This document shows, one piece after another, positions 18,001-24,000 of a stretch of DNA of 64,000 bases. A program made the position numbers. The first letter of the stretch is position 1. The number at the start of each line of letters is the position of its first letter. This DNA is from Bythopirellula sp. GTDB taxonomy: Bacteria; Planctomycetota; Planctomycetia; Pirellulales; Lacipirellulaceae. The stretch is taken from NCBI GenBank assembly GCA_965216565.1, contig OZ244170.1, positions 2,304,001-2,368,000 on the forward strand, in the 5' to 3' direction.

Positions 18001-21000
18001 TTCCAGCCGTGAGCCTGGAGTACCGTGAAAGTAGAAAACCAACTGGCCATGTGGATCGCCATATTCTCGATAGGCCAAGCACCGCCCGTCGCAAAGCTTT
18101 AGGCTTCCCTCGCGACTGAGGGATTCATCATCCGCGCGGGCGAATTGGCCAGAGCAAACCAACAGCAGCAAAGCTGCAATGCGAGTGGGGAGAGCAGAGA
18201 GCATTTCAATATCTTGGGCGGGACGGATCGGGGAGGGGCGCAAGCAAGACTTGCGACTATATAAATCTACACCCTAATTGTCATCTAGGCGCTGGCTAGC
18301 TGATTGTAAAATGTTCGGAATCTAACAAATCCAACGATTAGAGGGACCAATTAGGGCCAGCAAGGGCAATAGAAGTATTCCTAGATTCGGCTCGGGCACT
18401 GCGGACAGGTTTGGAGTGAGCGGTATGCCCGTTCCAAATTCTTGCTGCCAGTCCAGAAAATCCAATCCATTGAGGTCCACTCCATAGCGAGCCTCCCAGC
18501 CAAGCGTTGGATGCGTGAGATCATTTGAATCGACATCACCATCGCCATCAAAATCCGCTTTTAAGTTCTGGAACAGAAATAATCCGCTGTCTCCATTGGT
18601 GAAGTCGACTGAAAACAGCAGATTGCCCAAATCGTTTAAGGCGGTAGGACTGCCGTCGTTTCCACCTGAGCCGCCTACGAAATCGAGTGACGCGATCGTT
18701 CGACCCGCCAGATTATCGCCCTCCTGGGCAATCAATACACCTGCTCCTCCTGAGTCCATCAGCCACAATCCCGAGTCGTTGCTGGCCCCCACCGCACCGC
18801 CAAGCTGTAAGGAAGCTTTCAGTGCGATCTGACCGGCAGAGTTTAATACATACTTTTCAAAATCGTCGAAGCTGGCCCCCACAATGCCAGGCACGCCTGC
18901 ACTTCCACTACGGGCAATTTCGTTTGATGTAACGCCATCAAACGACCAGATTCCACGGCTGTCGCTGGCTGTAACTCCTCCCACACCAGCCACAAGTTCA
19001 CCATGGACGATAACATCTCCGCTATCACTCAATAGAGGAGTCTCGAACGACTCAAAATCAGCATCTGCAATCCCCGGCACCCCTCCCGACCCCGTTTGTG
19101 CAATCCGTTCCGGCACTGGTAACCTTCCGTGTGGGATTTCTTCGTATTCCCCGTGATTCCCAGCCGTTGGCGGATTGTTTGCATTTTATTCCGCTAGCAA
19201 TGCTATAGTACCAATTGCGTTGGCCTGGACTTGGGGTGTCTATCACGCAACAATTCCAATCCGCTCTAACTCCCCAACAAAAAAACCCGGTTGCCATTAC
19301 TGACAACCGGGCTCGATAGAACAAGTTTACTGCACTTTAGGCGTACTGGATCAGCTTCCATGTCACGGCTTTACCATTGTATGGGGGCATCACATTGCCC
19401 TCTGCAATGGGTGCAGTTGTGGATGGCGTACCTTCCACTTTCCACACTCCGCTCTCTGGACATCTTTGACCAGTAGTCGCTGTAGTGCCTATCGGTTTTT
19501 TGCTCATCTCAAACAAACTCCTTTAAAAAAGAGGAAAAAAAGTGGCCAGCTTCGGACTAATAAAGCCCTTCGACATCGACCACGGGGAACTCGATGGACT
19601 CCGCCAACAAGATTGTTTTGTCCTTGGCTATGAACTTGCTCAGATCGACCAACTGCTAAAGCAGCCAGAGTCCATCAATAAACCAGTTCACGCTGACAAC
19701 AATAATCGTATAAAAAAAGCCTGTGTCGAATCTGGTCGCCAATACAGCTTGACGTGGATGTCCGGTGACTCGTCAGAGTCATGGATGCATCTTCAAGTTG
19801 ACGGCTTGTAAAACGACAACGACTCCCAAATCTAATAATTAAGCATCATTGCACGCATGCGCGGCAACTCTATCGGTGCTATTTGGGGATGCTGTGCCAG
19901 AGGCGGCGAGATGTGAATAACGTCCGCTACTCCATTAACAGTCAATTCCTACTCAGAATATACATAATTGGAACGCGGTCGCAAGGGGCAAAGCCAACTT
20001 GCGACCGCATCCAATAAAGACGTTATTCACGGGCAACTTTGTACCATTTTTCACAATGTCTCGTCAACTAGTTTTTGCACTATTCCGTGCTGTTAGTTTG
20101 CGGCATTTATCAGCAATTCTCCAACACCCCAGGCTTTTTCTGTCAAACCAGCGGCCATTGCTGGGGTCTCGCCTAGCGAGTCATGCTTGCGAGCAAAGTT
20201 GTAGTAGCAGAGATAGATTGCTTGCATGGCCTTGTGATGCTCTAGGCTCTTGCTGTGGGCATTCGTGAGACGGGTGAACCGTCGCAGATGCATTCTATAC
20301 TTCTGGTTGAAGGATTCGATATGGCTCGTGCAGACGTTCTCTTGCTTGGGGTTACCGTAAACAGCTTTCTTCTCAGAGTTTATTATCGTGGCCGGGCTGT
20401 AGCGGGTCTGCGTTTGGGTAGATGCGTAGTTCTTGACGATCTGGCCATAGTCTACCCGATTGCCGAAGGTGAACGGCACGTTGTTGGTGTAGGTCGATAG
20501 GCCGTCAGTGGACAGTTGGAAGCGGCCAGCGGTCGCACGGTCTAACTTCTCCAAGAATCGAACAGTGGTTTCGCGATCCCGGCCACCAATCTCATAGGCC
20601 AGAACCATTTTCGTATTCCGCTCGATTCCAAGAAACGTCCAGGAGTCGCCGTACTCTTCCCCGTAGCCATTGGCTTGACGGGTTTTTTCTTTACAGCCAA
20701 CGAAGCTCCAGATTTCATCGGCCTGCACGTCCTCAACTTCGATGTCGCGTAGGCTGTTCATCAGGCGTTCGCAGTTGTTGCCGACTGTGAGAATGAGATC
20801 GGCCAGAGTTTGACGGCAAAGGCCGGTCACACGCTGTACTGAGCGAATCGACATGCCCTCTAGCAACAGGGAGATAGCGGTAGCGGCTTGCTTGATATCG
20901 GTTCGCATGGCCCCTAGTGGGCTCTCTGGCTTGTCAACGAAAGTCTTGCCACACAGCGAGCACTTCAAACGGGGGTGACCTTGACGGTCTTTCCCGTGTT

Positions 21001-24000
21001 TGTGGCAATTTTCGTGTTGGCAGGCGGTTACTATCATTGTTCTCTCGTTGATTTCAGTATACTTTAATCAAACGAGGGCTGCAATAGATTAGGGTTGATT
21101 TTTGGAAACTTTTATCAAATAATCTGGCATGGCTAAGAAAGCAACAAAACGGGGCGGAAAACGCCCAGGCGCAGGACGACCCGCCAAAGCCCCTAGCGAG
21201 AGGCGAGATCAGGTCTTTTCCGTCAAGCTGACTGCTGACGAGAAGAAGCTACTAGACGATACAGAGGCGCGCACGTGGGCACGCGACGTATTGCTACGAT
21301 CCGCTCGCAAGAGACAGTAAGCGGAGAGTGGGGGAGTCGAACCCATCCGATGGACGGACCCCTAGCACAGTGTATAAGGCTGCTGCATCAACCGAGATGC
21401 GGGCCGCTCTCCAGAGTGGCCCAAATTCAGATGCTAAAATCGCAATGTATTCATGGCGTCCACTAGACTTGAATACTGGAACAGAGGTTCACTGCAAGAT
21501 CAGGAGGGTAGCTCTGTGGAGATGTACGAACCTGTGATCCTCGTTATAAAATGCTCTCCCTGGTGTTCGCAGTAATCAACATTCAGCGCAGCAGTCCATG
21601 CCCTGCCTTCATGGGTGCATGTGATTTGAATGTGCACAGGAGATGATTTAGTTGTAGAAGAGATAACTGAGTCAATTCTTTCAGCAAAAATAATGCGGAT
21701 GGCCTCAGGCACATCCGCATCATTGCTAAAAAACTGCTCAATTGTCCTAAGAAGCCATTGAACGTTCACTCATAAATTCCTTTAAGGACGTAAATTCCTT
21801 TCGTTCAATGCACTCTTGGATGTCTTGAATCTCGCCAGTGTCTATTTCCATAGACTCAGAGAGAGACTCTAGAACCTTGTAGACACCAACATTGATGTCT
21901 TCTAGGGTCAAGTGACCCGTACCCGAAGACTGCATATATGCTTCCAGCCATGCCGTCAACTGGCGACGGATGGTTGGCTCATACGCGCGTAGGATTCTCT
22001 TGGCATCAAGTGGAATTGTAGACATTTTAATAACCCGTGAGAGATTGCTTACATGCTGTACCGATACTCCATTAACCGCTATCGGCTGCGGCACTCCCCA
22101 ATATTTAGAACGCAACAGACGCTCAAAAGTTCGCTAAACAAAGAAAAGCCCCGCAATGTATAAAGCTTAGGGACCATTGTCAATCCATAGTTGGTCGGCA
22201 CCCTAAGTCTAGAATGGCAAGCGAGTTGTGTCAATAATAGAGTTGGTGGATTGTGACAAATAAGTGATACATCCGACCGAAAGCATTGGCATAACAGGAT
22301 TTATTGCTAGCACTATTCTCCCGCAGGGGTGCCAAGGTTACCACTACATATAGTCCAACCGGACACTTCGGATCGGATAAACCGCCGTGGATTTGCATGA
22401 AGGGATTTCCTGACGCACCGCAGAACCTTCCCCGGATCGTCCTCGGCACGACAGCCCAACGCCTGAATTGCTACTACTAGCTCTGCTGGCTTCATACCCT
22501 TCGACCCCTCTAGCACCTCTGCGATGACATCCGACATCGGCATCACGGCATAGGGAGGGGCGGCAGTGTCGTTGTCGAAAGTGACCCAGAGAATATGCCC
22601 CTTGTCGTCCTTGGCAATCCGCCTCAGTTCCTTGCGGTCGGCGAGGGTATAGACAGCAGCTTTGACGGACCCACGATTCCAGTGGCGTTCTGGCTCAGCA
22701 GCTTGGAGAATCTCAAGCACTTCACGATTCGAGAACGGACGATCACGGGGCATAAACTCACGCACCGCGTCTATGGCCGTCTTGCGAACTCTCAAGCCTG
22801 GTTCTGGCTCGTCGCCTAGTTCGCGTCGCAGTGAGTTGATCTTGTCGCAGGTGTCCCGGTACTCTTTGCGCGCCAGCGTGATTGCTTTATCAAGTTTTTC
22901 CGCTGCCTGTTTCTTTAGTAGTTCGTAGGCGTCCATGCCCAAGATGGTAGAATGATCGGAGGGGCTAGCAAGTGGGTCGATTAAATCCCACACACTAGGT
23001 TACCAGTGCCTCCGTTCCCCAGTGGTTCCTGTATAGAGCCAGATGCCTTTGTCGTTGGTCGAGCTGATTGAGCCAGCGTGGGTAAGTTCTGAATAGAATG
23101 CCAACTGATCAATACCATTGATCACCGGGTCGCTCAATTCCGTAAAGTCAGTCGAGGCCACGCCTGGTACCGCACCAGCCCCTTGGCGAGCAATCACATT
23201 TCCACCCAACGGGGAATACTTCCAGATCCCGATGAAGTTGGTCGAATTGATACCACCCCCTTGTACTAAACTTGCTCGGAACGCAATCTGTTGATCGTCG
23301 TTGATGGTTGGGCCAACGAAATTATTGAAGATGCTTGATAGATCGGCAGCGACCGTTGTGTTCTCGCGTGCTAAAAGTGTCCCGCCCAATGCGTCGTAAG
23401 TCCAAATGCCACCATCGTCGTCTGAGGTTACGCCTCCCGTCGTGGCAAGCGAGGCATCGACTGCAATCTGGCCGATATCGGAAACATGTAAACTGTTCGG
23501 TAGGAAGTCAAATACTCCGTTAGTGACGCCAGGAGCGGCAGAATCCCCAGTACGGACGACAAGTGAATCGCTGCCAGAAAATCTCCAGATACCTTCACGG
23601 TTGGAAGCGTCCACCCCGCCACTGCCCGTCTCAAGAGAACCACGCACGAACACATCCCCAGCATTGCTAACAGAAAGGTCTCGAAATAAATCATAACTCG
23701 CACCGGCAACCCCTGGGACGTTTCCCGAACCCTGGCGGGCAAGCAACGAAATACTCCCTTGATCGAAGCTCCAGATACCATTTGCATCGCCAGATACGAC
23801 TCCGCCAACGCCGGTCTGAAGTTGTGCAGGGAAAGCAATGGTGCCACTATTATTGATGACTCCGGCTTCGAACGTATCAAATAACCCGCCCGCTACTCCC
23901 GTGGCCGCGTCGCCCGACACGGCAATTGTTGTTACCGTAGCGTGGATAGGTTCACTAAAATATGTAGATAACAAGAGAACGAGCCAAAGTGATTTAGAAT

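What a model noticed while it worked through the whole genome (the two positions that open the first line are those of the whole stretch)
19928..22076. Two uncalled 9/3 allo-tRNA(UAU) genes ride inside IS1-family transposons
Two allo-tRNAs with a 9-bp acceptor stem, 3-bp T stem and UAU anticodon (2325322-2325412 and 4676953-4677049, minus strand), missed by ARAGORN and Rfam, each sit in the same kind of element: IS1-family transposase, divergent small RHH-like gene, allo-tRNA, cargo, bounded by 12-14-bp direct repeats (2323928/2326065; 4675599/4678054). This names a carrier for the allo-tRNA(UAU) class and extends it to Planctomycetota.
Evidence so far: Sequences and cloverleaf; transposase passes NF033558 IS1 cut-off; direct repeats. 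Among 80 loci of homologous transposases (mostly Acidobacteriota, call 143) a strict finder found 9/3-type tRNAs in 5, four with the same CTTATA/TTTATA anticodon loop, against 1 spurious hit in 484 kb of control loci.
(Added by a program. Inside this text positions count along the whole contig: contig position 2,304,001 is position 1 of the stretch shown here. "Call 12" and the like, gene names such as g00115 and contig names such as C1 are that model's own, and its searches are not shown. The text may have been shortened before it was handed on; [...] marks where a part breaks off. The agent that wrote the report below was given it as the finding of a first reader that could run no searches.)

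Follow-up and report, generated by a model that had tools for sequence, protein, structure and literature searches.

The report
Jumping gene carrying its own tRNA
A jumping gene carries an oddly folded tRNA whose anticodon matches a rare codon that the jumping gene's own enzyme keeps at fixed positions, which suggests the element uses a private tRNA to control how much enzyme it makes.

Summary
Both tRNA genes are real: 9-bp acceptor, 3-bp T stem, a fifth stem and an invariant UAU anticodon, supported by covariation in 35 homologues. Copy 1 is a 3,899-bp IS1-family transposon (19112-23010) with terminal inverted repeats and an 8-bp target duplication; its empty site occurs in two other sequencing runs, and the 12-bp repeat is chance-level. 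The transposon is the usual carrier: 31 of 43 tRNA-anchored loci have the transposase just downstream. All 71 tRNA-bearing transposases keep rare AUA codons in codons 195-240 (19 of 86 without tRNA). IS1595 transposons carrying 8/4 allo-tRNA(UAU) repeat the pattern (13 of 15 versus 1 of 55), with AUA at Ser-tolerant sites. The tRNA has serine, not isoleucine, identity elements. Best reading: a seryl-tRNA that reads the element's own AUA codons and gates transposase synthesis. Direction, charging and expression are untested, and independent phylogenetic contrasts are too few for significance. The allo-tRNA(UAU) class is published (PMC5389517). This scan noted the IS1/AUA link earlier on other genomes; no note retrieved mentions IS1595.

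The parts
19104..19111 (.). 8-bp target-site duplication, left copy
   Evidence: identical to 23011-23018; empty-site joint in two other runs
19112..19144 (+). left terminal inverted repeat of the 3,899-bp transposon (begins GGCACTG)
   Evidence: 21 of 24 match to the right end; inverted repeat I3
19337..19516 (-). 59-aa cargo ORF, no family hit
19542..19811 (+). 89-aa cargo ORF; weak DUF3045 match below cut-off
   Evidence: 32% of 500 shuffles have such a repeat
20093..21037 (-). IS1-family single-ORF DDE transposase, 314 aa (N-terminal Zn finger; invariant D107/E108, D178, E241)
   Evidence: NF033558 over cut-off; invariant columns; model pLDDT 90.8 with DDE transposase/integrase fold
20381..20386 (-). 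tandem AUA codons 218-219, in the beta-hairpin between D178 and E241
   Evidence: Ile at 218 is ATA in 35 of 35 and at 219 in 28 of 30 tRNA-bearing homologues; positions; strands
21047..21119 (.). two similar palindromic boxes (21047-21072, 21094-21119) between the divergent starts; putative RHH operators (inferred)
   Evidence: repeats D2 and I19; binding not tested
21129..21320 (+). 63-aa NikA-like ribbon-helix-helix protein; its stop codon abuts the tRNA 3' end on the other strand
   Evidence: 24 of 48 family members match Pfam NikA-like, though the window protein itself has no hit; best PDB sequence hits are RHH proteins, weak; two helices predicted; stop 2-20 nt from the segment end at the tRNA in 53 ORFs
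21322..21412 (-). 9/3 five-stem allo-tRNA, anticodon UAU (21374-21376), G73, long variable arm, no encoded CCA
21500..22115 (-). two overlapping cargo ORFs (89 and 122 aa), no family over cut-off
22313..22933 (-). cargo ORF of about 206 aa; weak DUF7669 match below cut-off
22978..23010 (-). right terminal inverted repeat
23011..23018 (.). 8-bp target-site duplication, right copy
18322..19111 (-). 3' part of the DUF7453 gene interrupted by the element
   Evidence: DUF7453; the empty site reads as one 623-aa ORF
23019..24100 (-). 5' part of the interrupted DUF7453 gene

Best explanation
A cargo-carrying IS1-family transposon encodes a private tRNA keyed to rare AUA codons in its own transposase. 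Shown by sequence: the element and its ends, the tRNA's conserved fold, its invariant UAU-A37 loop and serine identity set, and AUA codons held at fixed transposase positions in tRNA-bearing clades of two IS families. Inferred: host SerRS, which ignores the anticodon, charges the tRNA. Inferred: AUA codons throttle transposase translation while only the scarce host tRNA-Ile2 reads them. Inferred: when the element's tRNA is transcribed, it reads those codons and licenses a burst of transposase, and the codons sit mostly where Ser is tolerated. Inferred: the RHH protein and the antisense RHH transcript keep the tRNA and transposase low, which limits mistranslation of host AUA codons. I put about 0.8 on a tRNA-codon coupling in transposase translation and about 0.45 on this positive direction.
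For: Codon link: 71 of 71 non-redundant IS1-type transposases with a UAU tRNA within 2.5 kb have ATA in codons 195-240, against 19 of 86 without (after moving two loci whose G32 loop the regex missed). Fifteen Ile-rich columns in 46-187 hold 1 ATA in 398 Ile codons. The excess is in-frame only: 53.6 per 1000 codons against 5.1 and 8.7 out of frame. The base before ATA218 is T in only 5 of 30, so it is not a -10 box. Three clades use different AUA sites. IS1595 replicate: 13 of 15 against 1 of 55. There ATA is 56 of 92 Ile codons at tolerant columns but 3 of 170 at hydrophobic columns, and 49% of ATA sites score Ser above Ile against 7% of ATC/ATT sites. Two losses fit: L104 has no tRNA and no ATA; L424 lacks the tRNA and codes Ile with ATC/ATT. 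Identity: G73, C72 and G2-C71 in 35 of 35, R4-Y69 in 34 of 35, long variable arm; no A73 or C4-G69 pair (against Table 1 of PMC9976931). The acceptor top matches host tRNA-Ser(GCU). Other scaffolds fill the same slot with the same anticodon, six of them with G3.U70 and A73.
Against: Independent contrasts are few and not significant: IS1, 6 pairs, about 3 same, 0 opposite, p 0.25, and with a two-codon threshold about 2 same, 1 opposite; IS1595, 5 pairs, p 0.25. The 195-240 window was chosen after seeing the data. In IS1-type enzymes ATA sites still score as Ile/Val (Ile +0.78, Ser -1.45), and columns 200 and 235 are hydrophobic core. Six elements (L105, L302, L325, L273, L356, L369) keep two or more AUA with no tRNA found. 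PMC5389517 found six allo-tRNA(UAU) amber variants inactive in an E. coli Ser/Ala reporter, and two of them lethal. Acceptor pair 7 is mismatched in 18 of 35, including the window copy. The host has tilS and CAU tRNAs, so AUA is readable without the element. RHH genes do not avoid ATA (17 of 100). GGA at codon 297 is also concentrated (29 of 71; 17 of 86), so one column alone proves little. No expression data.
Confidence: 0.45

Rival explanations
1. Brake: the tRNA inserts Ser or Ala at AUA sites that need Ile, or stalls ribosomes there. The transposase keeps AUA as a target so that more element copies give more tRNA and less active enzyme.
For: IS1-type ATA sites score as Ile/Val, two are core columns, and the cluster lies just before catalytic E241. 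Amber variants were inactive or lethal in E. coli. Intact elements with AUA but no tRNA found exist.
Against: The most Ile-committed columns in 46-187 carry almost no ATA. In IS1595, ATA avoids hydrophobic columns and sits where Ser is tolerated, the opposite of what a misincorporation brake needs.
Confidence: 0.28
2. Ordinary helper tRNA-Ile: it is charged with Ile and relieves a rare codon, as phage or island tRNAs do.
For: A35, U36 and A37 are invariant. The small scaffold has A73 and mostly C4-G69. IS1 ATA sites look like Ile.
Against: The 9/3 type lacks A73 and C4-G69 in 35 of 35 and keeps the Ser set. A helper does not explain why AUA is held at fixed positions while other Ile codons avoid it. 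Cargo ORFs of the two copies show no clear ATA excess (9 of 54 Ile codons; small numbers).
Confidence: 0.1
3. RNA toxin or decoy: the tRNA is a mistranslating toxin kept silent by RHH and antisense RNA (addiction or abortive defence), or a decoy for anticodon nucleases. The AUA codons are a secondary adjustment, or a CreT-like sink for host tRNA-Ile2 that the tRNA relieves.
For: Allo-tRNAs with mismatched identity killed E. coli and lie near toxin-antitoxin genes. HI1420 antidote genes flank four acidobacterial loci. Tandem AUA sequesters tRNA-Ile in CreT.
Against: A general toxin should drive AUA out of the element's own genes, not fix it. CreT needs a tiny ORF with AUA near the start; here the tandem is at codons 218-219. 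No PADLOC hit among six cargo ORFs.
Confidence: 0.12
4. No functional link: tRNA and AUA codons are both inherited within a few clades, or the ATA triplets are a DNA or RNA motif unrelated to decoding.
For: Only 9 (IS1) and 5 (IS1595) changes of tRNA state on the trees; contrasts not significant.
Against: Synonymous sites are saturated elsewhere, while ATA218 never becomes ATC/ATT across long branches. Sites differ between clades and families, the excess is in-frame only, and several tRNA scaffolds share only the anticodon.
Confidence: 0.05

Closest known systems
allo-tRNA(UAU) group, Mukai et al. 2017 (PMC5389517)
   Same: 12-bp acceptor/T branch that is not 7/5, long D stem, long variable arm, UAU anticodon, mostly G73. 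The paper mentions possible five-stem junctions and suggests a link with transposable elements or TA systems.
   Different: The paper lists UAU under 8/4, and its 9/3 species have Arg, Leu or UAA anticodons. The 60 of 186 UAU rows I saw are acidobacterial-type, nearly all typed delta9-10 or delta9, and motif searches found no sequence of this type. No IS family and no codon link appear in the text read; Figures 4A and S5 could not be seen.
IS1 family, single-ORF members with passenger genes (ISMhu11 subgroup, GGnnnTG ends, 8-9-bp duplication: recalled from ISfinder; search found no paper)
   Same: NF033558 hit, Zn finger plus DDE, GG-start inverted repeats, 8-bp duplication; 21 of 38 tRNA-bearing loci show both, 2.4-4.8 kb long.
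   Different: Carries an RHH gene and a tRNA as fixed parts. No InsA/InsB frameshift; the proposed control is a rare codon read by a private tRNA.
IS1595 (ISXO2-like) transposons
   Same: Carry the 8/4 allo-tRNA(UAU) and show fixed AUA codons.
   Different: Different transposase family; the tRNA usually lies 0.6-1.9 kb downstream in either orientation, and no RHH of this family was found beside the tRNA.
CreT tRNA-sequestering RNA toxin (PMC8501985)
   Same: Two consecutive AUA codons act as the functional signal, and tRNA supply relieves the effect.
   Different: CreT is a mini-ORF controlled by CRISPR-Cas in haloarchaea. Here the codons are deep inside a transposase and the matching tRNA is on the same element.

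Membership tests
allo-tRNA (Mukai 2017) | 8/4 or 9/3 acceptor/T branch of 12 bp | tested here: met
   9/3: pair 9 in 31 of 35; 8/4 pair in 2 of 35
allo-tRNA (Mukai 2017) | long D stem with short loop and long variable arm | tested here: met
   5-bp D stem 98.9% paired; variable stem present, 66.7% paired at a fixed register
allo-tRNA(UAU) group | UAU anticodon and five-stem junction | tested here: met
   UAU-A37 in 35 of 35; fifth stem 96% paired with compensatory changes; match to Fig. S5 itself not seen
allo-tRNA(UAU) group as tabulated | 8/4 geometry, delta9-10 type | tested here: not met
   this type is 9/3, so it is a new subtype
bacterial tRNA-Ser identity | G73, C72, G2-C71, R4-Y69, C11-G24, G30-C40, large variable region | tested here: met
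   35/35, 35/35, 35/35, 34/35, 31/35, 31/35 (set)
bacterial tRNA-Ser identity | serylation and use on the ribosome | not testable with these tools
   needs a charging assay; related UAU species failed in E. coli
bacterial tRNA-Ile identity | A73 and C4-G69 | tested here: not met
   0 of 35 each
tRNA-Sec (RF01852) | gathering score and UCA anticodon | tested here: not met
   25.8 against 47 bits; the host has its own tRNA-Sec
IS1 family | IS1-type DDE transposase | tested here: met
   NF033558 104.8 against 100; PF03400 over cut-off
IS1 family | terminal inverted repeats and 8-9-bp target duplication (recalled) | tested here: met
IS1 family | mobility | tested here: inconclusive
   the empty allele in two other runs shows past insertion; only one copy of each variant in the genome
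ribbon-helix-helix repressor | RHH fold and operator binding | tested here: inconclusive
   family-level NikA-like/RHH_1 hits; the monomer model shows two helices and no strand; binding untested

The most novel reading that the evidence does not exclude
IS1 and IS1595 transposons run a private, codon-specific translation switch. They encode tRNAs built on anticodon-blind scaffolds (Ser or Ala identity, at least four folds) that read AUA, and their transposases keep AUA codons as the lock. This would be local, element-encoded recoding of a sense codon used to control transposition, and it would give the most abundant allo-tRNA class its missing function.
Probability: 0.45. Interest if true: 0.9.

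Novelty: new variant of a known kind. Interest (0 to 1): 0.72.

Why it matters
[quoted passage not shown] A named carrier, a candidate target (AUA codons at fixed sites of the transposase), a repeat of the pattern in a second IS family and an intact 3.9-kb element with a known empty site make the question directly testable with synonymous recoding. If the gate is real, it is a way of regulating transposition that my searches did not find described, and a natural case of element-encoded sense-codon mistranslation. These genes are also often missed by standard annotation: the model finds them in 46 of 150 genomes of the host's order.

Tried and rejected
Direct-repeat boundaries: rejected. 8/4 fold: rejected. 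tRNA variable loop as a guide for target choice: a 5-nt match in copy 1 only, to a repeat that is not the target; dropped on inspection. ATA-ATA as a -10 box: rejected for 218-219; the ATA near column 39 in tRNA-less clades does look like a -10 box upstream of the start, so counts start at column 45. Obligate AUA-to-Ser recoding in IS1-type enzymes: not supported. RHH immunity by avoiding AUA: not supported. Single-sequence folding: uninformative. BLAST of the tRNA over 401 phylum genomes gave mostly T-arm noise and one full-length homologue. The covariance model found 0 of 150 in a phylum-wide draw against 46 of 150 in the order. No RNA holder listed; only contigs were laid. Cargo ORFs: no PHROG, PADLOC or over-cut-off Pfam/NCBIfam hit. 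The Atlas search for RHH gave unnamed clusters. Literature searches linking a transposon-borne tRNA to transposase codons found nothing relevant in the listings (one search listed allo-tRNA papers); the library lacks most subscription journals. Rows dropped before counts: 8 of 43 tRNA hits left out of A1 as mis-registered or degenerate; 243 transposases reduced to 177 at 90% identity, then to 157 with at least 1 kb upstream; 73 IS1595 reduced to 70; of 121 pattern loci only 80 had flanks, and 58 tRNA hits in them were classed as allo-tRNA (43 plus 15). Loci from genomes flagged unpublished were left out of all counts.
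Full report
Observation. The window has a tRNA-like gene at 21322-21412 (minus strand), and the genome has one more at contig 4676953-4677049, 75% identical. ARAGORN calls neither, and for the window copy Rfam gives only a sub-threshold tRNA-Sec match. The single sequence folds no better than shuffles, so I tested structure on homologues. Iterative search of 75 loci gave 45 hits; 35 clean ones were aligned. The structure with a 9-bp acceptor, 3-bp T stem, D, anticodon and variable stems and a fifth 3-bp stem is 89.8% paired, with two-sided changes at 23 of 30 pairs; 0 of 500 shuffles reach this, and slid controls give 46-60%. 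The 8/4 alternative fails, with 2 of 35 at the extra pair. RNAalifold finds the 9/3 branch and the fifth stem unprompted. U34-A35-U36-A37 and G73 are invariant. Acceptor pair 7 is mismatched in 18 of 35, including the window copy.

The element. The true ends are inverted repeats at 19112 and 23010 with an 8-bp duplication. The insertion splits a DUF7453 gene that reads as one 623-aa frame without it. Contigs of two runs from two studies join 19103 to 23011 with 8 ambiguous letters, so close relatives carry the empty site. Copy 2 is 2,445 bp with 21-bp inverted repeats and a 9-bp duplication, and its transposase has two TGA stops and an out-of-frame start. Among 38 tRNA-bearing loci, 21 show the same kind of ends. 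The transposase passes NF033558 and models as a DDE enzyme. The small divergent gene belongs to a NikA-like RHH family, and its stop abuts the tRNA 3' end on the opposite strand. The family labels ISMhu11 and GGnnnTG are recalled, not from a call.

Is the transposon the carrier? The pattern did not use the transposase, but it was built partly from tRNAs found beside one. Of 43 9/3-type tRNAs, all in records named as Planctomycetota, 31 have transposase sequence on the same strand within 0.9 kb downstream (29 starting 360-450 bp away, 2 as fragments), and 37 have the transposase, the RHH gene or the ends. Of 15 acidobacterial 8/4 tRNAs, 2 lie by the IS1-type enzyme and 11 by an IS1595 transposase. 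The model hits 46 of 150 genomes of the host's order and 0 of 150 in a phylum-wide draw.

The codon link. Earlier scan notes pointed to conserved AUA codons; I tested this. AUA is 7.3% of host Ile codons. Among 157 non-redundant IS1-type transposases, 71 of 71 with a UAU tRNA have ATA in codons 195-240, against 19 of 86 without (two loci with a G32 loop moved by hand). In tRNA-bearing genes Ile is ATA in 35 of 35 cases at 218, 28 of 30 at 219, 21 of 22 at 229 and 34 of 58 at 235, but in 1 of 398 at fifteen Ile-rich columns in 46-187. The excess is in-frame only. The sites lie in and after the beta-hairpin between D178 and E241. Three clades use different sites. Where the 9/3 tRNA is missing, other scaffolds with the same anticodon often fill the slot: six small tRNAs with G3.U70 and A73, and two 7/5 long-arm tRNAs. 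IS1595 is an independent replicate: 13 of 15 tRNA-bearing enzymes have ATA at one or both of two sites after the catalytic Glu, against 1 of 55 (12 of the 15 were tRNA-anchored). Against this: contrasts on the trees are few and not significant, the region was chosen after the fact, six elements keep several AUA with no tRNA found, and two tRNA-bearing IS1595 loci (L156, L123) lack both sites.

What the tRNA would carry. It meets the bacterial Ser identity set and fails A73 and C4-G69 of Ile (against Table 1 of PMC9976931). Its acceptor top equals that of host tRNA-Ser(GCU). A profile test shows IS1595 ATA codons at columns where Ser scores as well as Ile, and kept off hydrophobic columns. In IS1-type enzymes ATA sites still read best as Ile/Val, although the ATA share rises from 10% at core to 38% at tolerant columns (2.7% to 15.5% in tRNA-less genes). 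AUA is therefore selected as a codon, not for its amino acid, and obligate recoding is not supported.

Mechanism. I favour a positive gate (0.45): rare AUA throttles transposase translation, and the element's seryl-tRNA(UAU) relieves it at sites that mostly tolerate Ser, under RHH and antisense control. A brake by misincorporation or stalling is the main rival (0.28), followed by toxin or decoy (0.12), Ile helper (0.10) and no link (0.05). The host has tilS, so the tRNA is not needed for AUA decoding as such. PMC5389517 found related amber variants inactive or lethal in E. coli, which counts against efficient Ser delivery. Charging, expression and direction are all untested.

Comparison with what is known. 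PMC5389517 (parts 1-4 of 5 of the text; supplement part 1 and term searches, 60 of 186 UAU rows; figures not seen) defines the class, lists UAU as 8/4 and suggests a transposon or TA link. PMC7609411 (passages) repeats this. PMC7590224 (passages) does not mention UAU. PMC9976931 (section 6 and passages) gave the identity sets, and PMC8501985 (passages) the CreT parallel. Searches listed nothing on a transposon-borne tRNA matched to transposase codons. Seven earlier scan notes on other genomes report the transposon link, four of them the AUA codons; none retrieved mentions IS1595.

Verdict. A real feature and a new variant of a known kind: a 9/3 five-stem subtype of allo-tRNA(UAU) that is a fixed part of IS1-family cargo transposons, with a strong but phylogenetically under-powered codon link repeated in IS1595. 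Interest 0.72.

Noticed in passing
L068:6234-6303, L072:6159-6229, L075:1567-1636, L092:4304-4374, L109:5896-5964, L061:6096-6166: Small (about 70-nt) tRNA-like RNAs with a reduced D arm, UAU anticodon, G3.U70 and A73 sit in the same slot of the same transposon family; they may be alanine-charged AUA readers.
   Followed up: partly
L061:6172-6270 and L072:6236-6327: Two-tRNA elements: an allo-tRNA with UUA (ochre) anticodon, or a tRNA with GUC anticodon, directly upstream of the small UAU tRNA.
   Followed up: no
L097:652-753, L118:4147-4250: 7/5 long-variable-arm tRNAs with UAU anticodon and G73, on the strand opposite the transposase.
   Followed up: partly
L124, L158, L166, L182, L221, L237: Canonical long-variable-arm tRNA(UAU) genes with A73, most with encoded CCA, whose anticodon arm resembles the allo-tRNA's; some lie among other tRNA genes. 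A possible source of the anticodon arm.
   Followed up: no
L134, L174, L199, L200: A distinct acidobacterial UAU tRNA subtype always beside an HI1420-type addiction antidote gene; two of the four also have an IS1595 transposase.
   Followed up: partly
L177, L178, L189 (one contig): Three different tRNA-bearing IS1-type elements in tandem within about 10 kb; L064 also holds two side by side.
   Followed up: no
window 19782-20030: Nested inverted repeats downstream of the transposase (19782-19800 with 19995-20013; 19913-19924 with 20019-20030, 12 of 12) could form an RNA structure inside the element.
   Followed up: no
window 18322-19116 and 23000-24100: The interrupted DUF7453 gene ends in a PEP-CTERM-like tail (label recalled); a 6-bp insertion variant at 24051 occurs in the two runs with the empty site.
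   Followed up: partly
L001:5360-5600: The flank left of copy 2 resembles two other intergenic places in the genome (about 1755171-1755422 and 3400758-3400823).
   Followed up: no
tRNA-less IS1-type clade, e.g. L082-L084, L086, L096: ATA near column 39 is part of a conserved -10-like box just before the start codon, suggesting leaderless transcription; codon 218 is Cys in this clade.
   Followed up: partly
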